The position numbers and the translations under genes were made by a program. Below the pieces are notes generated by a model. It worked only from the letters and a program-made list of their open reading frames with translations. It was not told the origin of the DNA and did not search any database. DNA of 64,000 nt from Eledone cirrhosa. Taxonomy: Eukaryota. Location of the stretch: contig OZ024750.1 in NCBI GenBank assembly GCA_964016885.1, positions 34,224,001-34,288,000 on the forward strand, read 5' to 3'. This document shows positions 1-11,392 of this stretch, piece after piece (within the stretch, counting starts at the first letter, position 1; every line of letters starts with the position of its first letter).

Positions 1-934
1 ATACATTACTTGTATAGCTCTCACAAGCCATTCATCTACACCTAGTTTTCTAAGAGCCCACCAGATAATGGAGCGGGGACTCTGTCGAAGGCTTTTTCCA
101 AGTCAACAAAAGCTAAGTAGAGGGGTTTACTTTTAGCTAGGTACTTCTCCTGTAGTTGTCGTACAAGGAAAAGAGAATCTGTGGTAATTTTACCTGACAC
201 AAACTCAAACTGCATTTCATCTAGATCAATTCGATCTCTGATTAGTTGTGCTATAACACTTTCTGTGAATTTTATGACCTGGTCAACTAATTTAATGCCT
301 GTATAGTTTCCCCTATCTAGAGCACCTCCTTTACCCTTGTAGCAGTTAATGATGATGCTGCTATGCCAGTCATTTGGTATGACCCCATTCTGTATTGGTT
401 TACTATTTGGGTGACCATAGTATGTCCCACCAATCCAGATCCCTTCAATATCTCAGCAACTATCTCTGAAGGCCCAGCTGCCTTAGCTGTCTCCCTATCT
501 TTGATTGCCTTACTTATTATACTACCATTAACTTGCACCGCTGGTCCCTGATTGATTTGGAGCAGACTACCTTTTTTCCCATTTATTCTCCTCATTTAGT
601 AGTCTCTCATATTGACACTTCCAAGCTACCTTCTTATCAGTATCAGTAAGGGCAAATGCACCATTATCATTATGGGCACACTTCTACCCGATAATATTAT
701 GGTTTTCCTTGACACATTGTCTTGTGATCCTGAACACCTCATGTTTTTGGTCCTTGCGTTGTAGAACATGCTTGAACTTTCTATCCTCTGCTTCCCTCCT
801 TGCAAGGTACACTTGTCCCCTAGCTTCTCTCCTGGCCACTTGATAGTGTTCTCTACTTCCCCCAGCCCACCATACTTTCCAAGCCTGCTGTTTGCCCTTG
901 ATTATCTCTTCCACCTTACTGATCCACCACGAAG
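1..934 (-). mobile_element. Degenerate RTE-clade non-LTR retrotransposon (LINE) fragment, reverse transcriptase region; runs off the window start
   Basis: Minus-strand translation gives KAAGPSEIVAEILK, then GVIPNDWHSSIIINCYKGKGGALDRGNYTGIKLVDQVIKF...EMQFEFVSGKITTDSLFLVRQLQEKYLAKSKPLYLAFVDLEKAFDRVP, then after a frameshift SIIWWALRKLGVDEWLVRAIQVMY. These are canonical LINE RT motifs broken by frameshifts. The upstream WWISKVEEIIKGKQQAWKVW segment is also typical. Confidence 0.93.
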
Positions 935-967
935 ATATATATGTATATATGGGGTGGATGTAAACTG

Positions 968-1230
968 TAAGCTATAGTAAAGGCAACCTGTCTTGGAGAC
1001 CTGTCACTCTAAATGAATAATTATGTGGGAGAGTTGTGGACTGTATGACACTGTAAAGGCAACCTGACTAGGAGAGCCATGGACTCTATAAGCCATAGTG
1101 ATGGCAATCCATCCATGAGAGCAGTAATTCTGACTAAATACTTAATTCACAGAAGAGAAGAGGGCTATGTAAGCCATAGTGGAGGAAGGGCAACCTGACA
1201 AGGAGTGCAGTAACTCTCAATAAATATTTG
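968..1230. repeat. Old, degenerate tandem repeat (~4 copies, irregular 40-110 bp spacing)
   Basis: Recurring motifs AGC(C/T)ATAGT, GGCAA(C/T)C(T/C) and GGAGAG/GGAGTGCAGTAA near 970, 1055, 1091 and 1172-1215. Confidence 0.55.
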
Positions 1231-1262
1231 CACAATAAAATGTACATTGCCAAAACTATGAT

Positions 1263-1322
1263 CATGTCAAACCCATGCAAGCTTGGTTAAACAAATGTGA
1301 AAATAATGATGATGATGATGAT
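1263..1322 (+). mobile_element. Retroposon 3'-tail remnant ending in (GAT)n
   Basis: AACCCATGCAAGCTTGG...AATGATGATGATGATGAT is a diverged version of the tails at 1814-1870, 3666-3713 and 7521-7574. Confidence 0.55.
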
Positions 1323-1497
1323 ACCTATAGCATATTATTCAAAAGAAATCAGATGATTTCTTTTGAATGAAACAGTTCTAGTCCTGTAGCTGCCATTTCT
1401 ATATTAAACATGATGGTTACACTCTACTAATGGATTGAGTACCTTATTAACTGTGGTCATCCCCGGTTGAACCCAGGACACCCACACACATACATAG

Positions 1498-1615
1498 TGA
1501 AGGTGCGTGGCTGAGTGGCTAGAGAATTGGATTCGCAATCGTGAGGTTGTGAGCTCAAATCCTGGATCGGGCAGTGCGTTATGTCCTTGATCAAGACACT
1601 TTATTTCACGTTGCT
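1498..1615 (+). mobile_element. 5' part of a tRNA-derived CORE-type SINE (3'-truncated)
   Basis: A-box-like TGGCTGAGTGG, B-box-like GAGCTCAAATCC, and CORE-like TGTCCTTGATCAAGACACTT. Homologous to the minus-strand copy ending at 11069. Confidence 0.8.
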
Positions 1616-1749
1616 TCTTCTGCCTGGATTTGTGACCGGTCGATAGTAATAGTAATTGGAAAGACCAATGGAAACATTGTTTCCTTCGTCCGATTTGATG
1701 AGCTCCACCCCAGTCGTTAAGCGAATGAGGTCTGTGATCTTGTTGATTG
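1616..1749 (-). CDS. Candidate exon of an unidentified minus-strand gene
   Basis: Strong acceptor (T-tract, CTTTTGTATATAACAG|) at 1750-1775. Phase-1 reading is INKITDLIRLTTGVELIKSDEGNNVSIGLSNYYYYRPVTNPGRR. No clear GT donor before it runs into the antisense SINE. No recognised homology. Confidence 0.3.
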
Positions 1750-1813
1750 CTGTTATATACAAAAGAAAAAAAAAATCATTATTTCAATAATTATTCAGCA
1801 ATAAACAGTAATT

Positions 1814-1870
1814 TCATCATCATCATCACCGTTTTACGTCCGTTCTTCCACGCTAGCATGGGTTAGACGG
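1814..1870 (-). mobile_element. Retroposon 3'-tail remnant
   Basis: Reverse complement is CCGTCTAACCCATGCTAGCGTGGAAGAACGGACGTAAAACGGTGATGATGATGATGA, near-identical to 7521-7574. Confidence 0.75.
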
Positions 1871-2044
1871 TACTAATTTGATATATCAATTATCATTCAA
1901 GTTTAGTAAATATTTCTTCACTGAGTTTTATGCTGCCATGAACTGGTTAACATGAAGAGCAATTTAATAGATAAATAATAATTCACTATATCGATATCAA
2001 TGGACCTCCGATGGCTTTGATGATAGGTAGTCCAGTTTTTTTTA

Positions 2045-2456
2045 TTAACCCTTCAGCATTTACATTACCCTATATATACTATTATATTTTCCCGGTAAAG
2101 GCTTTACCTTGCATAATTATCTCAGATAATTGTTTCTACTTTAGGCACAAGGCCAGCAATTACCCAGTGCATTACTGGTACTTTATTTTATCGACCCCGT
2201 AAGGATGAAAGGCAAATTCAACCTCGGCGGGATTTGAACTCAGATCGTAAAGGGACGTAACTATGCTAGAAAGCATGGCGTCCGACCCTCTACCGATACT
2301 GCCAATCCACCAGATAATATCAAATATACGAGGTTTTGATATTTATTTTGAGAACAATACCTTAATGTCAGTATGAGCAGCTTGTTAGCCAGTTTGAACT
2401 GAAAGAGTTGAGAGAATTATGGGCGGATATGGCCGGTTTAAATGCTAAAGGTTTAA
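2045..2456. mobile_element. piggyBac-like MITE (TTAA TSD, CCCT terminus) carrying a SINE insertion
   Basis: Left end TTAA-CCCTTCAGCATTTA (from 2045) and right end TAAATGCTAAAGGT-TTAA (to 2456) are imperfect inverted termini bounded by TTAA. No transposase. Confidence 0.65.
2131..2311 (-). mobile_element. Young tRNA-derived SINE, family A
   Basis: Near-identical reverse complement of 3033-3210. B-box GAGTTCAAATCC, central GCCTTTCATCCTTACGGGGTCGATAAAAT. TSD CAGATAAT at 2123-2130 and 2311-2318. Confidence 0.92.
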
Positions 2457-2487
2457 TGGAAGTGCCTGCTCATGAAATTTATGTGTC

Positions 2488-2723
2488 AGTGGCTGAGTAT
2501 TCCATAGATATATGTACTGTTAATGTAATTCTCAGGAAGATTCAGCATGACACAGTGTGTAAAACAATGCTGACCCTTTTGAATTACAGGTACAGTCTAT
2601 CGTGTATTATTGTGTAAGTGGCTGAGCATTCCACAGACACATATACCATTAAAATAATTCTCAAGGAGATTCAGCCTAACACAATGTGTGACAAGTCTGA
2701 CCGTTTCAATTACAGGTACAGTC
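2488..2723 (-). mobile_element. Two tandem copies of a SINE 3' segment
   Basis: GTGGCTGAG...TTCTCA(G/A)G(A/G)AGATTCAGC...AATTACAGGTACAGTCT occurs at ~2489-2598 and ~2618-2723. The same segment is in the SINE at 9984-10196. Confidence 0.75.
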
Positions 2724-2726
2724 TGA

Positions 2727-2890
2727 CAGGCTTCCAAACAGTTTTTGTCTACTAAATTTCATACACAAGACATGAGTCAACCCATGACTATGTTAAATGA
2801 CACTTACCCCGCTCCCCCAAGATGCCATTCAGTGTGATTGAACCCCAAGACCTAATGATTGTCAAATTAACTTCTTAACCATTGCTGTGT
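2727..2890 (-). mobile_element. Diverged tRNA-derived CORE-type SINE
   Basis: GACACTTACCC...CAAGATGCC (antisense CORE-like), GTGATTGAACCC (antisense B-box) and CTTAACCATTG (antisense A-box). Confidence 0.6.
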
Positions 2891-2900
2891 CCTACAATAA

Positions 2901-3389
2901 GGAGAAGGGTAAAGATCCCATAACTCCTTGTGGAGTCGTAGAGGCACCGTCAAACGGTGTGTTTAGGACACTTTCAAAACAGGCGGGGCCCAACCCTCTC
3001 CAGGTCTGAACACAGTCGATTATTTCTATAGAGGATTGGCAGTATCGGTAGAGGGTCGGACGCCATGCTTTCCAGCATAGTTACGTCCCTTTACGATCTG
3101 AGTTCAAATCCCGCCGAGGTTGACTTTGCCTTTCATCCTTACGGGGTCGATAAAATAAAGTACCAGTAATGCACTGGGTAATTGCTGGCCTTGTGCCTAA
3201 AGTAGAAACAATTATTTCTATAGAGGAAGAATCGACCCCAGTACTGGACTGGTACTTTATTTATCGACCTCGAAAGGATGAAAGGCAAAGTTGACCCCTG
3301 GCGGGATTTGAACTCAGAGCACGCAATGAGGTGGGACGAATACCGTAAAGTATTCTATCCGACGTCTTAATGACTCTGCTAATTCAAGG
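2901..3389 (-). mobile_element. Older SINE sharing the family A head/central domain but with a longer 3' tail; interrupted by a younger SINE
   Basis: 3231-3389 is homologous to family A (B-box; GCCTTTCATCCTTTCGAGGTCGATAAAT). Its tail continues at 2901-3018 and ends CTTTACCCTTCTCC. 10-bp TSD CCTACAATAA at 2891-2900 and 3390-3399. Confidence 0.85.
3033..3210 (+). mobile_element. Young tRNA-derived SINE, family A
   Basis: GGATTGGCAGTATCGGTAGAG...AAAGTAGAAACA. TSD ATTATTTCTATAGAGGA at 3019-3035 and 3211-3227. Confidence 0.93.
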
Positions 3390-3633
3390 CCTACAATAAC
3401 TTAGAGTGTAAATAAGAGATTATATCACTTCTTTCCTGAACACAAACCTTGACACTTTTACAGGAAGAGAAATAAGATATTATTATGTTCATTCTTTGAC
3501 AAAAGACATGAAAAACCTTTCATCAATGACTCTGTTTCCTATTAAATGATAACACTATATAGATATTTCGTTTCTGAATTTGTTTAGCAAGATTCTTTAT
3601 CTTATTGGCAACATGACCCTCCCAAAGTATAAC

Positions 3634-3665
<32 letters not shown>

Positions 3666-3669
<4 letters not shown>

Positions 3670-3930
3670 TCATCGTTTAACGTCCATTTTCCACGCTAGC
3701 ATGGGTCTGGACGGGAACTGTCCCACTTGAGGGAAGATTGGTTGTCTTGCTCAAGACTGTCTGGCGGGTTTTCTACGGCTGGATGCCCTTCCTAACACCA
3801 ACCACGTTTACAGTGTGGACTGGGAGGTTTTTACCGTGTTGCCTACACGGCCACATTACAGCGTGGACTGTTTTTTTTTTTGTCGTGACACCTACACGAC
3901 CTCATTTGTTTTGGACTGGATGTTGTGGTA
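3666..3930 (-). mobile_element. 5'-truncated retroposon 3' end, flanked by (TA)n on both sides
   Basis: Same (GAT)n tail family, plus antisense GGTTGGTGTTAGGAAGGGCATCCAGCCGTAGAAA, a motif I recall from RTE-associated retroposons. (TA)n tracts at ~3637-3667 and ~3936-3959. Confidence 0.7.
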
Positions 3931-4059
3931 CCAACATATATATATATATATATATATATGATTGATTCATTCATCAGGCAAAACTGGTTAAGGATAGACA
4001 CCACACGTATGTGTTTATACTTATGTATCTATATGTATTTTCTATAATTTGTCTTTATA

Positions 4060-4094
<35 letters not shown>

Positions 4095-4095
<1 letters not shown>

Positions 4096-4135
4096 GCATG
4101 GCCTCAGCCGGATGGCTGAAACAGGTAAAAGAGTA
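4095..4135 (+). mobile_element. Short retroposon-tail-like remnant within (TA)n
   Basis: CATGGCCTCAGCCGGATGGCTGAAACAGGTAAAAGAGTAA contains a TCAGCC/GGCTGA stem-loop followed by an A-rich end. Confidence 0.45.
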
Positions 4136-4343
4136 ATATACACACACACACACATACACACATATATAATTATTGATACATATATATGTATATATATATA
4201 TAGTTATTGATATAAACTAATTATAATTATCCTGCCTAATTAGTTTCTACATACTCCCTAATGAGGCTAAAAAATCAATCTCCATTGCAGTAAAGTACTT
4301 TTATTTGTCAACCCAGCTACTTTACTAAAATAGAAGAACTTAC

Positions 4344-4385
4344 GTATGACAGAAACATAGGAAACACAATAAATGATTTCCTGAC
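4344..4385 (-). CDS. Candidate 42-bp phase 1-1 mini-exon
   Basis: TTCCTTGATAAAACAG|GTCAGGAAATCATTTATTGTGTTTCCTATGTTTCTGTCATAC|GTAAGT has a consensus donor and an open frame (xQEIIYCVSYVSVIx). Phase-compatible with the 1749 acceptor. Confidence 0.33.
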
Positions 4386-4505
4386 CTGTTTTATCAAGGA
4401 AATCATTTGAAAGATAAACCATTAATTTATAAATAACAAGTAAGTTCATTGAACCCACGCATTAGCAAGATATTCTTGAAAAGTATAAAGAAGCAATATA
4501 TGATT

Positions 4506-4965
4506 TCATCGCATAAAAACATCAATTCTTCCTCTTTGTCCTCCTATTCCTGAGAGGGTCATGACACACACACACACACGCACACGCACACGCACGCGCA
4601 CACGCACACGCGCACGCACACGCACGCACACGCACGCACACGTACGCACACGCACGTACACGCAGGCGCACGCACGCACGCACACACACAACACACTCTC
4701 TCTTTCTTTCTCTCTTTCTCTCTTTCTCTCTTTCTTTCTCTCTTTTTCTCTCTTTTTCTCTCTTTCTTTCTCTCTTTCTCTCTTTCTCTCTTTCTCTCTC
4801 TCTCTCTCTCCTTCTCTCTTTCTTTCTCTCTCTCTCTCTCTCCTTCCAGTGGGTCCTGTCAGAAGCACTCATCTCCAAGCAAGACCAGTCAAACTCATGG
4901 ATGTTATCCAACCATCTTGCTCATTGTCTACCTCTGGGTCTCCTGCCAGTTGGTTTTGCCTGTAA
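4506..4965 (-). mobile_element. LINE (RTE-like) ORF C-terminus/3' end, split by a compound microsatellite
   Basis: 4845-4965 translates on minus as ILQAKPTGRRPRGRQ*ARWLDNIHEFDWSCLEMSASDRTHWK, matching the GxRxRGRPxxRWxD...DRxxW C-terminal signature, with an in-frame stop. Confidence 0.7.
4565..4843. repeat. Compound microsatellite (CA)n-(GCAC)n-(CT/CTTT)n
   Basis: Read directly from the sequence. Confidence 0.97.
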
Positions 4966-5040
4966 AATCATCAAGTCATTATTCTAATATACTATTAAAA
5001 CATTTTCACCATGTTCTATCCACCAATAGAATATAAACAT

Positions 5041-5495
5041 TTAACCCTTTAGTTACCAACCCAGCCAAAACTGGCTCAGGTTCTATGAAATAAAGTCATC
5101 CATTTTAAAGGTTTTCAATTTAAATTAAAATCTTCCAACATTATTTTATATAAGAGTTATATATATTATAGGGCGGTGGATTGGCAGTATCGGTAGAGGG
5201 TCGGACACCATGCTTTCCAGCATAGTTACGTCCCTTTACGATCTGAGTTCAAATCCCGCCGAGGTTGACTTTGCCTTTCATCCTTGTGGGGTCGATAAAA
5301 TAAAGTACGAGTAATACACTGAGATAATTGCTGGCCTTGTGCATAAAGTAGAAACAATTATTTTATATAAGAACTTTACATTAAGTTACTATCTTAGTAA
5401 TGAAATAGTTGATAATTTTAGAGAATTCTTCAAAATTCTTCATTACCTAATTAAAATAGTATATATCATTAGAAATATGGTCATGAAAGGATTAA
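5041..5495. mobile_element. Second TTAA-flanked piggyBac-like MITE carrying a SINE insertion
   Basis: TTAACCCTTTAGTTACCAA (from 5041) versus ATGGTCATGAAAGGATTAA (to 5495): 14/19 inverted match including the TTAA. Confidence 0.55.
5171..5356 (+). mobile_element. Full-length tRNA-derived SINE, family A
   Basis: GGGCGGTGGATTGGCAGTATCGG...AGTAGAAACA. 16-bp TSD ATTATTTTATATAAGA at 5140-5155 and 5357-5372. Confidence 0.93.
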
Positions 5496-6361
5496 ATTAA
5501 CAAACCTATTTTCAGATATTTTCTACTAAACCATTACTGGATGTTAAGAGTTAAAGCCACTTTTAACCAAATTCTTACAATTTATTTGCCACTGTGTTCA
5601 TTATTGATATTTTATTAGTATTTTTCTTAAGATTAGTCAAACTTCTAACCTCATTCTACTTCTCAATCTACATCCTGTTTATTTTAAGGACTGGTTGTTA
5701 ACAAGATATTTTTTATAGATAGAGGATGCAGTTATCTGCTGGTTTCGGGTAACTTTTCACTTATTTTTCTCAGAATTTTGATTATTTATTGTATTTAGGC
5801 CACATTGATACATTATATAACGACTTGTTCTATCTCCTACTGAATGTCTTTCTGAAAATGTCTCAAGCTGTGTATACAGCTACACTTAGAGACAGCTTTA
5901 GTTAAAATTGCTTGACAAGAATCTTTTACAATCTATGCTCTCCAGTATTTTCATATATGTAAAGCAAAAAGCAAGAAAAAGCAACAGCAGTCATATATTA
6001 TTTTAATGTATATAGAGAGCACAGATGGCAAAATCTATTAGATACTGGGAAACTAATTTAAAGAGTGCCAGATAGCTAACTCTGAGTCGCCGAGGATAAT
6101 CTCTTATGTTTTCTTCTATGCAAAGGAATAATTGAAAGTATTTTTATTTCATTCTTTCCAGAGCAAAGGCCTCTAGAAAATAAATAAATAAATAAATAGA
6201 TAAAGTAAGCTATAGATGTATCTATATCAAGTTTACACCAAATCTACAATGCAATTTAATTCGAGGGGTTTTTATATTTGTTGTATTTGATAAAAATCTT
6301 GCTCTTAGACATATGTTGCAAACTAACTTTCAGATTGTTTTTATAAAGCTGATATATGTTT

Positions 6362-6656
6362 GATTTAATGAAAGTAGCACATAGAACAAGTGTATTTCTT
6401 GAACCACCAATTTAATGAAAGTAATACAGGGACAAGTGTATTCCTTGAGCCACAGATTTAATGAAAGTAATACAGGGACAAGTGTATTCCTTGAGCCACA
6501 GATTTAATGAAAGTAATACAGGGACAAGTGTATTCCTTGAGCCACAGATTTAATGAAAGTAATACAGGGACAAGTGTATTCCTTGAGCCACAGATTTAAT
6601 GAAAGTAACACAGATAACAAGTGCATTCCTTGAGCCATAGATTTAATGAAAGTAAC
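6362..6656. repeat. 46-bp minisatellite, ~6.3 copies
   Basis: Unit GATTTAATGAAAGTAATACAGGGACAAGTGTATTCCTTGAGCCACA. Central copies are identical; terminal copies are diverged. Confidence 0.97.
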
Positions 6657-6834
6657 TGTTCAGAGAAGTAACAGCTCTACCTGGAGCAACTGCCTGATCT
6701 CTGAGCTACACACTTTATTGGGTAAAGTTAGTTCAAAAGACCTTTTGAAGGAACTCTATTTCAACCACTTGTATTTCAAAACACTATTTCTATATAGCCT
6801 TTAAAATATTTTTAGTGAGAGTCTCTTCTAAATC

Positions 6835-7082
6835 CAGAGGCTCATTAGGTTTATCCCTGTTTCATTGATGTTAAGTAACTGACAGTACAAGATTTCCTCC
6901 TGGATAGGACGCTAGTTCATCACAATGTTAACCCTCTAGCTACTGAGGGTACTTATTTTCAGCTGAGTTAACTGGATCAATATGAAATGAAATTAAATGT
7001 TTTGCTCAAGAAAACAATGTACCACATGATTCAAACCATCACATTATGATTGTAAGTCCAATACTGTAACCAGTAAGCCACA
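6835..7082 (-). mobile_element. Diverged CORE-type SINE with a distinct 3' domain
   Basis: CAGCTGAGTTAACTGGA...TGTTTTGCTCAAGAAAACAA and AACCAGTAAGCCA are shared with 10940-11069; the 6835-6950 segment differs. Confidence 0.65.
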
Positions 7083-7274
7083 CACACACACACCATCTAT
7101 GATCAACTTAGCTACAGTGTAAACATCTAATAACCAGCCTAGAGTCAATAATATTTGACTGACATTTTCAATTGTTCTCTCTTATATTTGCCACCTGAAA
7201 CTAATTACTCATTTCTTTTGTCTATTTTATAACCAGAAGCAATTAATATTAAGAATCAATAAACCTTATCTATT

Positions 7275-7313
<39 letters not shown>

Positions 7314-7354
7314 TTGTATATTTAATAGGTTATATCATATTTGTAGTCTTTTAT

Positions 7355-7404
7355 ATAGGAAAAAGTTTAACCACAATGGCCGTTGGGGTTAAACTTTTTC
7401 CTAT
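7355..7404. repeat. 50-bp spacerless palindrome (23/25 arm match)
   Basis: ATAGGAAAAAGTTTAACCACAATGG|CCGTTGGGGTTAAACTTTTTCCTAT. Confidence 0.95.
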
Positions 7405-7520
7405 TACCCACTCTACTACTTTAAGTATTGAGTACTCGGGTGTGTTATGGGCCATCTGGTTCCTTACCACACCTCCTTCGTTAGATATATATATATATAT
7501 ATATATATATCATCATATAT

Positions 7521-7573
7521 ATGTCTAACCCATGCTAGCGTGGAAGAATGGACGTAAAACGATGATGATGATG

Positions 7574-7574
<1 letters not shown>
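7521..7574 (+). mobile_element. Retroposon 3'-tail remnant within (TA)n
   Basis: GTCTAACCCATGCTAGCGTGGAAGAATGGACGTAAAACGATGATGATGATGAT, flanked by TA tracts. Confidence 0.75.
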
Positions 7575-7595
<21 letters not shown>

Positions 7596-7604
<9 letters not shown>

Positions 7605-7860
7605 TAAACAAATAATGAATAAAACAATGAAACAGTTCCTTATATTAAACAAAAAAAGTTCATTATTTAACGATCGTTTCTAGGATATATATGTGTTAGA
7701 ATTGGCATGCATATTCAACAGATCTATGTACAAAATTATACAAAATTATACAAACTATCAAGATTAAATATACATACCAAACACACATATACGCCGTCTT
7801 CAGAAATAATGAAATATATTTATTGATAATAACAACAATTCAAAATTTCAGGTCCGTTTG
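7596..7860 (-). repeat. Left arm of 265-bp inverted repeat
   Basis: Reverse complement of 9449-9713; no mismatch found by eye. Confidence 0.97.
7659..7813 (-). ncRNA. Type I hammerhead ribozyme motif with long stem II (inverted copy)
   Basis: Reverse complement of 9496-9650. Confidence 0.68.
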
Positions 7861-8026
7861 AGTGAGAGTGTAGTGGTGTTTGTATGTATATACGCATATA
7901 TGGATGCGTATGTATTTGTATATATGAGTATATGTAAGTGCGTATGTATGTATGAATATATATCTATGTCTATGTATGAGTATATATGTGTGTGTATGTA
8001 TGTTGTGTGTGTATGTATGTATGTGT

Positions 8027-8058
<32 letters not shown>

Positions 8059-8124
8059 GTGTGTATATGTATGTATGTATGTGTATGTATGTACATATAT
8101 GTGTATGTATATGTGTGTGTGTAT

Positions 8125-8164
<40 letters not shown>

Positions 8165-8362
8165 CTTTATTTTATATATATGTGTGTGTGTGTATGTATG
8201 TATGTGTATATATATCTTTATATATGCGTATGTGTATGTTCGTGTAGGTGTATATGTGTGTATGACTATATATGTATGTGTGTATGTGTGTATGTATGTA
8301 TGTGTATGTGTGTGTACATGTATGTATGTGTATGTATATATATGTGTGTATATGTGTATGTG

Positions 8363-8398
<36 letters not shown>

Positions 8399-8685
8399 TA
8401 TATGTATATGTATCTCTATTTGTATGTGTATATGTATATGTATATACCTTTTTCTTTGTATGTCTGAGTTGTGTGAGAGTGTAGTGGTGTTTGTATGTAT
8501 ATACCGATATATGGATGCGTAAGTATTTGTGTGTATGTATGTATGTATGTCTGTATGTATTTGTGTGTATATATAGGTATGTATGTGTATGTCTGTATGT
8601 ATATAAGTATGTATGTATATGTATATGTGCGTGTATGTGTATATATATGTGTGTCTATATATGTATGTGTGATTATATATGGATA

Positions 8686-8734
<49 letters not shown>

Positions 8735-8800
8735 ATATGTGTGTATGTATGTATATGTATATGTTTATATATGTGTGTGTGTGTGTGTTCTATGTGTAGA

Positions 8801-8875
<75 letters not shown>
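7861..8875. repeat. Compound (TA)/(TG)/(TATG) microsatellite block made of two ~611-bp-spaced units
   Basis: The anchor GTGAGAGTGTAGTGGTGTTTGTATGTATATAC..ATATATGGATGCGTA occurs at 7862 and 8473, each followed by degenerate TA/TG repeats. Confidence 0.92.
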
Positions 8876-8878
<3 letters not shown>

Positions 8879-9448
8879 TCTTGTTATATTTCTTTTTTCT
8901 TTTTTCTTTTTCTTTTCTTTCCTTTTTATTTTTTATTTCTTAGTTTATAGATACATCTATAAATAAGCAGTCTGCCCAAACCGTTGAATACTGACCTCTC
9001 CCCCCCTCCCACCTAATTTCTGTATCTTGATCTAAATGTGTGTGGCAGTGTTTATGTGAGTGAATTAATATCCATGTGCTTATGATAATATTATATCCAC
9101 ATATATATGTGTGTGGGGGTTGTGTGTGTGTATGTATGTTCGTAATTATGTGTATGTTTATGCATATACGCGCGCGTGTGTGTGAGTGTACGGATATGTG
9201 TGAGTATGAGAATATGTGTATACACTTATTTCATATTTATGTGTCTATACGCATTTTATCTGTGCATTATAAACTTACAGAGACATTAGCCTTGAAATTT
9301 TGTATTTGCATGCATCTTTTTGGCATGCGTATGCATGTTGAGCATACATCTTTGTATAAATATGTGTACGGGGTTAGTTACATGTATATACACACACCAA
9401 ACTGCATAAAACCTTTTGTATTTTCATTGGTCAATTTTGAACTGTTCC

Positions 9449-9713
9449 CAAACGGACCTGAAATTTTGAATTGTTGTTATTATCAATAAATATATTTCAT
9501 TATTTCTGAAGACGGCGTATATGTGTGTTTGGTATGTATATTTAATCTTGATAGTTTGTATAATTTTGTATAATTTTGTACATAGATCTGTTGAATATGC
9601 ATGCCAATTCTAACACATATATATCCTAGAAACGATCGTTAAATAATGAACTTTTTTTGTTTAATATAAGGAACTGTTTCATTGTTTTATTCATTATTTG
9701 TTTAATATTTTAT
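9449..9713 (+). repeat. Right arm of 265-bp inverted repeat
   Basis: Reverse complement of 7596-7860. Confidence 0.97.
9496..9650 (+). ncRNA. Type I hammerhead ribozyme motif with ~116-nt stem II and palindromic stem III
   Basis: Stem I TTCATTATTT (9496-9505) pairs with AAATAATGAA (9641-9650). CTGAAGA core 9506-9512; GAAA 9629-9632; AACGATCGTT palindrome 9631-9640; predicted GUU cleavage triplet 9638-9640. Confidence 0.7.
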
Positions 9714-9983
9714 CTTGACTCTGTATACCGTTTATCTTTCACCGAAAGTGATTTTTCATTACATCTCTTCTTTCCATGATATCCGGAATACATTGAGTTC
9801 TTCATACGGATTGGACACTACCGTAAACTCTTGGTAGATTTATCTACATATATATATATATATATATATACACACACCTAGTGTATTCCTGGCATTCGCG
9901 GTCCTGGTTATTCACGGAATTTTCCTTAGAACCTAACTAATAATTGTTCATGTTAAATGATGTACTTTTTCTCAAAAAGAAAC

Positions 9984-10196
9984 TTCCATAGACACACATG
10001 CCTTTAATGTAGTTCTCAGGGAGATTCAGCACGACACAGAATGTGACATGGCTGGCTCTTTGAATTATTACAGGTACAACTCACTTTTGCCAGCTGAGTA
10101 GACTGGAGCAACATGAAACAAAGCACTGCCGGCAATCAAACCCCCGACCTTACAATTGTGAACCAAACAGCCTAATCACAAAGCCACATGGCTTCA
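9984..10196 (-). mobile_element. CORE-type SINE copy with an internal deletion
   Basis: CAGCTGAGTAGACTGGAGCAAC and antisense head (AATCAAACCC...AAAGCCACATGGCTTCA). Its 3' segment matches 2489-2723. Confidence 0.75.
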
Positions 10197-10418
10197 TATA
10201 TACACATATATACACATATATACATACATACACATATATACACACATATATACATACATACTCATCCCCCACTCCCCACGATCCCTAGTTATTGTGTAAT
10301 TATTTAAGATTTAATAGAAGTTCTAGGTAAATTCTTGCAAGTTGTTAATTCTGAACCTTTTCATTTTCTGTTTCTCTATCATGTTGACTCGACTTGGCTG
10401 TCTAACTTGTGTTATTAT

Positions 10419-10600
10419 GGATTGGCAGTATCGGTAGAGGGTCGGACGCCATGCTTAGCAGCATAGAGTTACGGCCCTTTACGGTATGAGTTCAAATCCC
10501 GCAGAGGTTAACTTTGCCTTTCATCCTTACGGGGGTCGATAAAATAAAGTACCAGTAATACACTGGGATAATTGCTGGCCTTGTGCCAAAAGTAGAAACA
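10419..10600 (+). mobile_element. tRNA-derived SINE, family A (slightly more diverged)
   Basis: Homologous to 3033-3210. GTTATTA is repeated at 10411-10417 and 10601-10607 (probable TSD). Confidence 0.9.
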
Positions 10601-10734
10601 GTTATTACTGGAAAATGACATAAATCTAAACATCATTTATCTCAGACTGTTGATTCACACACACACACATATATATATATGTGTGTGTGTGTGCGTGTGT
10701 GTGTGTGCGTGCACGTACATGCGTGTGTGTACCA

Positions 10735-11069
10735 GAAGCAAGCAGGGACCTGACCTGACATTAAAAGGATTTGCATCTAGAAAGTTCTCATCTGAAGTAC
10801 AAGTCCAGGCAAGGTTGTTTGTGGAAAACCAGCAGTCACCCATTGCATATCAGTCTCCCCTCTCCACACTATTGATGTTCTCTCAGGGAAAGGCAATGGT
10901 CGATACAGCTTGGCACCAGTAAATATGGCAACTTATTTCTGCAGCTGAGTAAACTGTTGCAACGTGAAATGAAGTGTCTTGCTCAAGGACACAACATATC
11001 ACCCAGTCCAAGAATCAAACTCACAATCTCCCAATTGCAAACCCAATGCTCTGAACCATGCGCCTTCAC
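10735..11069 (-). mobile_element. CORE-type SINE with a third type of 3' tail (left boundary approximate)
   Basis: GCAACGTGAAATGAAGTGTCTTGCTCAAGGACACAAC...CATGCGCCTTCAC is the reverse-complement homologue of 1498-1615. Confidence 0.78.
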
Positions 11070-11121
11070 ATGTAGCCCAGTACAACTTGTTTCATGATTG
11101 GGTGGTCAGCAACTAAACCGG

Positions 11122-11153
11122 CTCCCTCACCAGACCAGTGTCTGGTGAGGGAG
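11122..11153. other. Perfect 14-bp GC-rich hairpin with 4-nt loop
   Basis: CTCCCTCACCAGAC-CAGT-GTCTGGTGAGGGAG. Confidence 0.9.
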
Positions 11154-11392
11154 GGTAAGTGAAACGCCAGCAGCACAAAACAAGCTGCCAACGGGTGGAA
11201 GAACTCCAGATAGTCAATGACCATTCAACCCCAAACTAAAGGTAGCCTCACCAACCTGTAATTGGCCAAGCATAGTGAGTATGGCACACAGCATTGTCAT
11301 CTTTATGTGCAGATATTTCTTCACAAGTCCCACAGTAATGGAGGAGCAATGTGTGCAGACTCAATCAGTTGGAATCACAAAGAAATAAATTC

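What the first reader, a model, noticed from the sequence alone, without database searches (positions are those of the whole stretch)
9496..9650. Hammerhead ribozyme motif whose stem II is a ~116-nt hairpin
Seen: all type I hammerhead parts in order - a 10-bp stem I closing directly on CUGAAGA and GUU, then GAAA, and a minimal self-complementary stem III (AACGAUCGUU). Between the core halves is a long hairpin: 9529-9545 pairs with 9591-9607 (17 bp, three G.U), 9518-9526 with 9613-9621, and GG 9514-15 with CC 9625-26. The three arm differences in the 17-bp helix are G.U only on the ribozyme-sense strand, which suggests RNA-level selection. Established: Penelope-like elements and retrozymes carry minimal type I hammerheads with palindromic stem III that cleave as dimers, usually with short stem II. 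Inference: this long-stem-II variant would be missed by standard descriptors and may add a function (RT-binding handle, ADAR or Dicer substrate). Caveats: extra C after the core, extra UA before GAAA, and GUU is a weaker triplet.
Basis: partly seen in the sequence, partly recalled or inferred. Interest (0 to 1): 0.8.

Follow-up and report, generated by a model that had tools for sequence, protein, structure and literature searches.

The report
Long-armed hammerhead in Penelope-type repeat
A hammerhead self-cutting RNA motif with an unusually long (about 115-base) side hairpin sits in both ends of a high-copy, gene-less repeat in an animal genome, likely a passenger of Penelope-like jumping genes; it is predicted to cut only weakly or with help, and the standard library search run here misses it.

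Summary
The motif is there as described and is not chance: 0 of 3000 shuffles give an equal match, and it folds at z -7.0 on the + strand against -1.9 on the - strand. An identical second copy lies inverted at 7596-7860. The whole 7596-~9846 unit sits between (AT)n tracts, with a tail on one end only, the insertion pattern described for Penelope-like elements (PLEs). Public runs show a high-copy family in which the long helix II is retained under at least three organism codes. There the cleavage-site base switches U to A, an allowed base, in 33-40%. The extra C is a published PLE-hammerhead hallmark, not a defect. The extra UA before GAAA is family-wide and fails the strict hammerhead junction rule. 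In natural context stem I is predicted to be outcompeted by flanking complements. Verdict: a new structural variant of the PLE hammerhead in a likely non-autonomous PLE family. Cleavage, expression, phased covariation, the autonomous partner and any added role of the long helix are untested. No support was found for an ADAR or Dicer role.

The parts
7574..7598 (.). (AT)n tract at the left end, likely the insertion target
   Evidence: (TRF)
7596..7860 (-). Inverted, 5'-truncated terminal copy, 100% identical to 9449-9713
7659..7813 (-). Second, identical hammerhead motif (core CUGAAGA at 7797-7803; predicted cut at 7669)
7861..9448 (+). Body between the inverted arms: no ORF outside simple-repeat frames; simple-repeat rich; 7858-8225 and 8469-8843 are 78% identical. 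Only 9270-9448 was shown to be repeated elsewhere
9449..9713 (+). Direct terminal copy (pLTR-like); 9713 followed by (AT)n is a recurrent family end
   Evidence: 425 reads in X21, 1 contig in X5
9496..9505 (+). Stem I, 5' arm
9506..9513 (+). Core CUGAAGA plus the extra nucleotide (C) between positions 9 and 10.1
   Evidence: PMC4209133 names this extra base as typical of PLE hammerheads
9514..9628 (+). Helix II: 2 base pairs, then 12 bp plus 17 bp with a 5-nt bulge (9608-9612), a weak 45-nt apical part holding a 10-nt tandem duplication (9555-9580), and extra UA (9627-9628) before G12
9629..9640 (+). GAAA, palindromic stem III (9632-9639) and H17 (9640); predicted cut between 9640 and 9641
9641..9650 (+). 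Stem I, 3' arm
9678..9699 (+). Two further complements of the stem I 3' arm (9678-9687 with one G.U; 9690-9699 perfect); predicted competing hairpin 9641-9687
9714..9846 (+). Tail present on the direct copy only (about 133 nt; end uncertain by 2 nt)
9848..9869 (.). (AT)n tract at the right end

Best explanation
This is a hammerhead ribozyme motif with a greatly extended, base-paired helix II, present twice (once inverted) in a gene-less high-copy repeat that is likely a non-autonomous Penelope-like element (PLE) copied by a partner's reverse transcriptase; it is predicted to self-cleave after 9640 only weakly, as a dimer or with protein help. Shown: motif, strand-specific fold, inverted twin, (AT)n flanks, one-sided tail, family-wide long helix. 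Inferred step 1: a PLE protein nicks both strands of a TA tract and primes reverse transcription at two sites downstream of the ribozyme (about 9713 and 9846, 73 and 206 nt past the cut site); the two cDNAs join head to head, giving the inverted arm and the tail. Inferred step 2: because copying runs through the cut site, the template must be uncleaved, and the downstream complements of stem I would help keep the ribozyme off. Inferred step 3: cleavage would occur in a short co-transcriptional window or in tandem transcripts, when two palindromic stems III pair, and would free the element RNA from upstream read-through sequence. Inferred step 4: the long helix II is most likely a tolerated extension that is kept paired because a 100-nt insert must fold back for the two core halves to meet, not a new functional module.
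For: Motif beyond chance. Sense-strand fold. Inverted identical arm, (AT)n on both sides, tail at one end, matching the PLE insertion pattern in PMC8557442 section 6 and the opposite-strand hammerhead pairs in PMC4209133. High-copy family: 1907 contigs in X1, 8781 reads in X21, 46 contigs in X5, 3 in X10; depth rises about tenfold between 9450 and 9490, as expected from 5' truncation. Long helix retained: X10 contigs cover 9442-9589 and 9514-9637, X5 contigs cover 9555-9639 and 9610-9713 with 0 and 1 differences and no gaps (table 8). Of the 40 listed variant rows (of 103), none falls in the 19 core and stem III bases, and the one at the cut site is U to A (0.40, 0.38, 0.33 in X1, X21, X5). 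G9517A and G9523A turn G.U into A-U; G9514A does so in the second base register. A loose-end consensus of 664 X21 reads before 9613 reads as the fully Watson-Crick version of the 3' arm without the bulge (table 7; read by eye). Two RT start sites downstream of the hammerhead, both strands extended, uncleaved RNA as main template and protein-assisted cleavage are shown for the anole element PAc (PMC11167929).
Against: The helix II junction is imperfect in either register (C bulge plus UA bulge, or a C.A mismatch next to the core); Perreault et al. rejected such hits (PMC3088659 section 13). In 9449-9713 the ribozyme-competent fold costs 7.6 kcal/mol (5.8 even before the downstream complements are made), and the palindrome duplex returns only about -10 for two molecules. 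Core conservation is only weakly tested: 63 of 103 variant rows were hidden, and the 3' flank is also little changed (4 listed rows in 195 nt). The tail is about 133 nt against 30-40 nt in the literature. No autonomous PLE was found. T9496A (0.40 in X21, 0.01 in X1) and T9575A (X21 only) break predicted pairs at a helix end and in the apical part. Eight of nine Xenopus retrozyme dimers showed no cleavage in vitro (10.64898/2026.07.22.740005), so motif presence often does not mean activity.
Confidence: 0.7

Rival explanations
1. Catalytically dead relic: the family descends from a PLE pLTR, but the long insert and the extra UA have killed cleavage; the region is kept only as a structured handle or simply hitch-hikes because it lies next to the RT start sites.
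For: Imperfect 10.1-11.1 junction; stem I outcompeted in context; PAc inserts normally with a dead ribozyme in vitro, and no RNA ends were seen at its cut site (PMC11167929); high retention of this region follows from 5' truncation alone.
Against: The only listed change in 9629-9650 is at H17 and keeps an allowed base; the two CpG in the palindrome have no listed variant while the CpG at 9513-9514 and 9516-9517 vary at 19-72%; 10-bp stem I and helix II are both retained.
Confidence: 0.3
2. The long helix II is a functional module: a binding site for the partner PLE protein, or a double-stranded substrate for ADAR or Dicer that tunes the ribozyme or silences the element.
For: About 29 nearly continuous base pairs retained across subfamilies and organism codes; all five wobble pairs in the 12+17 bp register have the G where an A would give a perfect pair, and for four of them other copies show that A (9517, 9523 from table 3; 9599, 9603 from the loose-end consensus).
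Against: Most pairs in the helix are A-U (6 of 29 are G-C), so A/G-type wobbles are expected without editing. Over 9270-9845 there is no consistent strand bias in change types (G>A against C>T p = 0.37, 0.32, 0.046 in X1, X21, X5; A>G against T>C p = 0.37, 0.81, 1.0). Two of the A/G sites are CpG. In PAc the protein-binding and start region lies downstream of the ribozyme.
Confidence: 0.2
3. The unit is a MITE-like DNA transposon with 265-bp terminal inverted repeats and a TA target, and the hairpin is a DNA-level inverted repeat; the hammerhead match is incidental.
For: Perfect 265-bp inverted arms flanked by TA tracts, no ORF.
Against: The right end runs about 133 nt past the arm; the family is mostly 5'-truncated, with inverted joints at differing places (9402/9501, 9578/9715, 9499); the hairpin is stable on one strand only; the motif is beyond chance.
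Confidence: 0.06
4. The inverted twin is an assembly artefact (fold-back read), and only one copy exists at this locus.
For: The arms are 100% identical while only 582 of 1907 X1 contigs are 99% or more alike; no laid piece spans the locus.
Against: The two arms have different outer ends, and the left end (9713 plus (AT)n) is a recurrent natural end in independent runs; identical arms are expected from one recent insertion.
Confidence: 0.05

Closest known systems
Minimal hammerheads in the pseudo-LTRs of metazoan Penelope-like elements (Cervera and de la Pena 2014, PMC4209133)
   Same: Type I topology, extra base between 9 and 10.1, G-C near the base of helix II, palindromic stem III implying a dimer, mostly solo truncated copies, pairs on opposite strands.
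   Different: Helix II there is 7-8 bp, called larger than usual; here about 31 bp plus a 45-nt apical part (116 nt between core halves). Helix I 4-5 bp there, 10 bp here. Two extra bases before G12 here. No linked RT-endonuclease ORF found.
Poseidon element PAc of Anolis carolinensis (Frangieh et al. 2024, PMC11167929)
   Same: Hammerhead upstream of two 3' ends that define a tail; AT-rich target; copies run through an uncleaved ribozyme.
   Different: PAc is autonomous, its ORF starts in stem II with the cut 26 nt downstream, and its tail is 30-40 nt. Here no ORF, a 116-nt helix II region and a tail of about 133 nt.
Non-LTR retrozymes of animals (PMC7229834; Li, Clavereau and Pollet 2026, 10.64898/2026.07.22.740005)
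   Same: Non-coding, hammerhead-bearing, high-copy, likely PLE-derived and PLE-mobilised.
   Different: Retrozymes are head-to-tail tandem units with compact hammerheads and circular RNA intermediates; this locus is an inverted pair with a long simple-repeat body, and no tandem array was seen.
Naiad PLEs with 'HHR_half_core' (Craig et al. 2021, PMC8557442)
   Same: (TA)n target preference, inverted truncated copy and tail; core halves far apart (35-50 nt) in eight families, one of them from Octopus.
   Different: Those lack the stems of a hammerhead; this motif has all three stems and a 116-nt spacer. Six short words from this element were not found in that paper's supplement.
Viral type I hammerheads with 'long helix II' (PMC13725137)
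   Same: Type I, no loop-loop contact, helix II longer than usual.
   Different: 'Long' there means 6-8 bp; stable helix III, monomer-active, in RNA virus 5' UTRs.

Membership tests
Canonical hammerhead ribozyme (criteria of Perreault et al. 2011) | Core C3 U4 G5 A6 N7 G8 A9, G12 A13 A14 A15, U16 H17 intact | tested here: met
   criteria read
Canonical hammerhead ribozyme (criteria of Perreault et al. 2011) | Stem I and stem III paired directly next to the core | tested here: met
   9505-9641 and 9632-9639; stem III is only 2-3 bp in a monomer
Canonical hammerhead ribozyme (criteria of Perreault et al. 2011) | N10.1-N11.1 paired directly next to the core | tested here: not met
   either C and UA bulges or a C.A mismatch; so it is not filed as a canonical member
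Canonical hammerhead ribozyme (criteria of Perreault et al. 2011) | Reaches an Rfam hammerhead model | tested here: not met
Canonical hammerhead ribozyme (criteria of Perreault et al. 2011) | Site-specific self-cleavage | not testable with these tools
   needs an assay; no RNA holder was listed
PLE minimal hammerhead (Cervera and de la Pena 2014) | [quoted passage not shown] | tested here: met
   C9513
PLE minimal hammerhead (Cervera and de la Pena 2014) | Palindromic 15.2-16.2 and loop 3 | tested here: met
   8-nt palindrome 9632-9639, duplex -10 kcal/mol
PLE minimal hammerhead (Cervera and de la Pena 2014) | G10.1-C11.1 pair closing helix II | tested here: inconclusive
   G9514-C9626 possible (P 0.15) but two bases then precede G12; G9514A in 19-47% favours the other register
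PLE minimal hammerhead (Cervera and de la Pena 2014) | Helix II of 7-8 bp or less | tested here: not met
   about 31 bp: this is the variant feature
PLE minimal hammerhead (Cervera and de la Pena 2014) | Family-level covariation | tested here: inconclusive
   only unphased variant tables were available
Penelope-like element insertion (non-autonomous) | 5' truncation of most copies | tested here: met
   depth step at 9450-9490 in X1 and X5
Penelope-like element insertion (non-autonomous) | Inverted 5'-truncated copy joined at the 5' end | tested here: met
Penelope-like element insertion (non-autonomous) | Tail of 30-40 bp on one end | tested here: inconclusive
   one-sided tail present but about 133 nt
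Penelope-like element insertion (non-autonomous) | Shared 3' end with an autonomous PLE encoding RT and GIY-YIG endonuclease | not testable with these tools
   no genome held; no copies in the prokaryote, virus or plasmid collections
Autonomous PLE | RT plus GIY-YIG ORF | tested here: not met
   only simple-repeat frames of 150 aa or more near the locus
Non-LTR retrozyme | Head-to-tail tandem units each with a hammerhead | tested here: not met
   two copies, inverted; other loci of the family not seen in full

The most novel reading that the evidence does not exclude
The family is a class of 'long-arm' PLE hammerheads hidden from size-limited searches, wired as a switch: downstream complements of stem I hold the ribozyme off in the template used for reverse transcription, while the long helix II is a double-stranded substrate whose A-to-I edits are written back into the genome at each retrotransposition, so genomic copies record the host's RNA editing.
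Probability: 0.12. Interest if true: 0.8.

Novelty: new variant of a known kind. Interest (0 to 1): 0.5.

Why it matters
Published PLE and retrozyme hammerheads have helix II of at most about 8 bp in the papers read here, and one descriptor quoted in PMC8557442 allows 7-17 nt between the core halves. A high-copy family with 116 nt between them shows that such censuses can miss whole families, including perhaps some PLE clades scored as lacking a hammerhead. The purpose of PLE hammerheads is open (PAc inserts without cleavage in vitro); the built-in competitors of stem I give a concrete, testable model of an off state in the RT template. If the helix proves to be only a tolerated insert, the finding remains a useful but modest extension of a known family.

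Tried and rejected
Own genome: none is held, so copies could not be collected or aligned. Rfam: no hit at gathering score; 14 weak hits at E up to 10, none a hammerhead, judged chance. Collection scans for copies: 1 metagenome match, L001, a 26-of-27-nt chance match inside a bacterial ORF, rejected; 0 in viral contigs, 0 in prokaryote genomes, 0 in plasmids. Expression: no RNA holder listed; this says nothing either way. Read starts and ends in X21 (9309, 9324, 9600/9603; 9296, 9469, 9565, 9606) and the low-agreement loose ends at 9436 and 9606 coincide with GCATGC and AATT sites and are rejected as library artefacts; the T9608C share in X21 (0.74 against 0.06 in X1) is likely the same bias. 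ADAR signature: no consistent strand bias. Host: two protein searches with the neighbouring LINE fragment gave named hits from several animals at 62-69% and two bacterial labels at 76-77% that are probably mis-assigned, so the host is not established; an octopod host is recalled from the look of the SINE-like repeats and comes from no call. Link to Octopus Naiad elements: six words not found in the supplement. ORF start in helix II as in PAc: none. Earlier scan notes: nothing near or alike (one search gave only unrelated partial matches). Literature: searches showed no report of a PLE hammerhead with a helix II of this size or of cephalopod PLE hammerheads; two searches found no paper on edited retroelement RNA fixed by retrotransposition. 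The library lacks most subscription papers; Lunse et al. 2017 was not held, Arkhipova et al. 2017 was not read, and the Octopus vulgaris repeat library and the descriptor file of Perreault et al. were not seen, so prior description of this family cannot be excluded.

Full report
Observation. Stem I is ten Watson-Crick pairs closing directly on CUGAAGA and on the GUU triplet. GAAA runs into an 8-nt palindrome (9632-9639). The two core halves are 116 nt apart. A relaxed type I descriptor finds only this motif and one on the opposite strand in the whole window; among 3000 dinucleotide shuffles of 1-11392, 23 reach stem I of 4 bp, 1 reaches 6 bp, none reaches 10 bp, and none reaches 6 bp with a palindromic stem III. 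The + strand folds at z -6.96 and the - strand at z -1.92. Rfam gives no hit at gathering score over the window and no hammerhead among 14 hits at E up to 10 over 9200-9900.

Helix II. It has two basal pairs, a 12-bp helix (9517-9528 / 9613-9624), a 5-nt bulge, a 17-bp helix (9529-9545 / 9591-9607) and a weak 45-nt apical part with a 10-nt tandem duplication. In that register the 29 pairs hold five G.U and no other mismatch; on the opposite strand these would be A.C (5 of 5, one-sided p = 0.03). The junction to the core is imperfect in both possible registers: C9513 and U9627-A9628 bulged around G9514-C9626, or a C9513.A9628 mismatch followed by G9514.U9627 and G9515-C9626. Their energies differ by about 1 kcal/mol.

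Context. The motif is not alone. 7596-7860 on the - strand is 100% identical to 9449-9713. The left arm ends in an (AT)n tract; the right copy runs about 133 nt further and then also ends in (AT)n. Between the arms lie 1588 nt without a credible ORF, largely simple repeats, with an older internal duplication (78%) whose start coincides with the inner junction of the left arm. Craig et al. describe this arrangement for PLEs: 5' truncation, an inverted truncated copy at the 5' end, a tail on one end, and (TA)n targets in some clades (PMC8557442; passages, section 6 and supplement searches seen). Cervera and de la Pena report PLE hammerheads with an extra base between 9 and 10.1, palindromic stem III, helix II of 7-8 bp, and pairs on opposite strands (PMC4209133; parts 1-2 of 4 read, figures not seen). 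The extra C is therefore diagnostic, not a flaw.

Family evidence. No genome is held. The stretch 9270-9845, or part of it, is held by 20 public runs from 16 studies under 17 organism codes; none is on record as RNA. I laid 4 of the 23 listed runs. X1 (same organism code as the best holders, possibly the source sample) gave 1907 contigs, X21 (reduced-representation raw reads) 8781 reads, X5 46 contigs, X10 3 contigs. Summed depth in X1 is 0.26-0.49 million over 9490-9609 and up to 1.0 million at the 3' core, against 0.006-0.045 million upstream of 9450; depth is not a copy number, but the family is clearly high-copy and mostly truncated just upstream of the ribozyme. Copies ending at 9713 plus (AT)n recur (425 reads in X21, one X5 contig), 17 X1 contigs continue past 9822 with a variant end that also runs into (AT)n, and inverted joints occur at other places. 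The long helix and the extra UA are not private to this copy: X5 contigs cover 9555-9639 and 9610-9713 with 0 and 1 differences and no gaps, and X10 contigs cover 9442-9589 and 9514-9637. A second subfamily is visible as a loose-end consensus of 664 X21 reads before 9613, which reads as the fully complementary 3' arm without the bulge; one T of 9528-9530 is missing in 163 of 705 reads, which would fit it, but the two changes are not phased.

Variants. The table shows 40 of 103 rows; the 17 rows I checked all reach at least 0.40 in one run, so hidden rows are probably rarer changes (inference). None of the 40 falls in CUGAAGA-C, GAAA or the palindrome. The cut-site base changes U to A at 0.40, 0.38 and 0.33 (X1, X21, X5), keeping the rule that it is not G. 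G9517A (0.54-0.72) and G9523A (0.88-0.97) turn G.U into A-U; G9514A (0.19-0.47) does so in the second basal register. Against this: the 3' flank is also little changed (4 rows in 195 nt), so greater conservation of the core is not demonstrated; G9514A and G9517A are at CpG; T9496A shortens stem I in part of the family. X21 shares are biased by restriction sites in the element.

Would it cut? Folded alone (9490-9660), stem I forms. With natural flanks it does not: the 3' arm has two further complements at 9678-9687 and 9690-9699, and local hairpins take the 5' arm; P(stem I) is about 0 in all five longer contexts tried. Forcing the ribozyme-competent fold costs 3.3 kcal/mol for the bare motif, 5.8 with the upstream flank, and 6.9-7.6 with both flanks; a palindrome duplex between two molecules gives about -10. 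These nearest-neighbour numbers omit core tertiary contacts, magnesium and proteins. They predict weak or assisted cleavage, as reported for PLE hammerheads in general and for PAc, whose ribozyme cuts only with its protein, and whose reverse transcription starts at two sites downstream of the ribozyme, on both nicked strands, mostly on uncleaved RNA (PMC11167929; parts 1-2 of 4 read).

Mechanism. I commit to a non-autonomous PLE-type element (0.7). A partner protein would nick a TA tract on both strands and prime at about 9713 and 9846, producing the inverted arm and the tail in one event, which explains the identity of the arms. The template must be uncut, and the downstream complements would favour that state. 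Cleavage after 9640 would be limited to nascent or dimeric RNA and would trim upstream read-through sequence. I put detectable site-specific cleavage at a little over even odds. The long helix is best read as a tolerated, folded-back extension. Rivals: dead relic (0.3, compatible with the same element origin), functional double-stranded module (0.2), MITE (0.06), assembly artefact (0.05). The summary counts of change types show no consistent bias, so that idea is neither supported nor excluded.

Host. The window is animal DNA with simple repeats, a LINE-type RT fragment (PF00078) and a large satellite. Protein searches did not identify the host. An octopod host is my recall from the SINE-like repeats, not a tool result. 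PLEs are reported as recently active in Octopus vulgaris (PMC13282606; parts 1-2 of 3 read; its repeat library was not available).

Novelty. By the strict criteria of Perreault et al. (PMC3088659; passages and sections 8 and 13 read) the motif fails at the 10.1-11.1 junction, so I do not file it as a canonical hammerhead; it is built like a PLE minimal hammerhead with a far longer helix II. In the passages read, long helix II means 6-8 bp. Searches gave no report of a comparable helix. Passages only were seen of PMC7229834, PMC6765202, PMC13725137, PMC6155905 and PMC8967140; parts 1-3 of 5 of 10.64898/2026.07.22.740005. Lunse et al. 2017 was not held, and supplements not seen (descriptor files, alignments) may contain such variants. 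Verdict: real, family-wide, a new variant of a known kind; interest 0.5.

Noticed in passing
window 11393-64000: A 28-bp satellite of about 1928 copies (93% matches) fills over 52 kb, GC about 46% against 28-40% before it.
   Followed up: no
window 6362-6655: 46-bp minisatellite, 6.3 copies.
   Followed up: no
window 2126-2328 (-), 3024-3215, 5158-5321, 10467-10534: Four copies of a SINE-like repeat, 91-97% alike; recalled as resembling octopus SINEs, not tested.
   Followed up: no
window 42-900 (-): Broken LINE-type reverse transcriptase fragment (PF00078 relatives at up to 76-77%).
   Followed up: partly
window 9784-9846: The last 60 nt of the tail have 3-5 times the depth of 9730-9770 in X1, suggesting that this end is shared with other subfamilies or families; it closes with a small hairpin before the (AT)n tract.
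   Followed up: no
window 9517-9522 / 9618-9624 and 7869-7890: Both arms of helix II start with (AT) repeats, and the 5' arm loosely resembles the start of the element's simple-repeat body; the long helix may have arisen as a small inverted insertion into a TA loop. Low complexity makes this weak.
   Followed up: no
window 1855-1870, 3668-3715, 7520-7573: Three short related pieces ending in (CAT)n/(ATG)n repeats, one directly beside the left (AT)n target; probably 3' tails of a LINE (read by eye).
   Followed up: no
window 9673 (table 7): 806 X21 reads leave the sequence after 9673 with low agreement; a further family end, an indel-bearing subfamily or a library effect.
   Followed up: no
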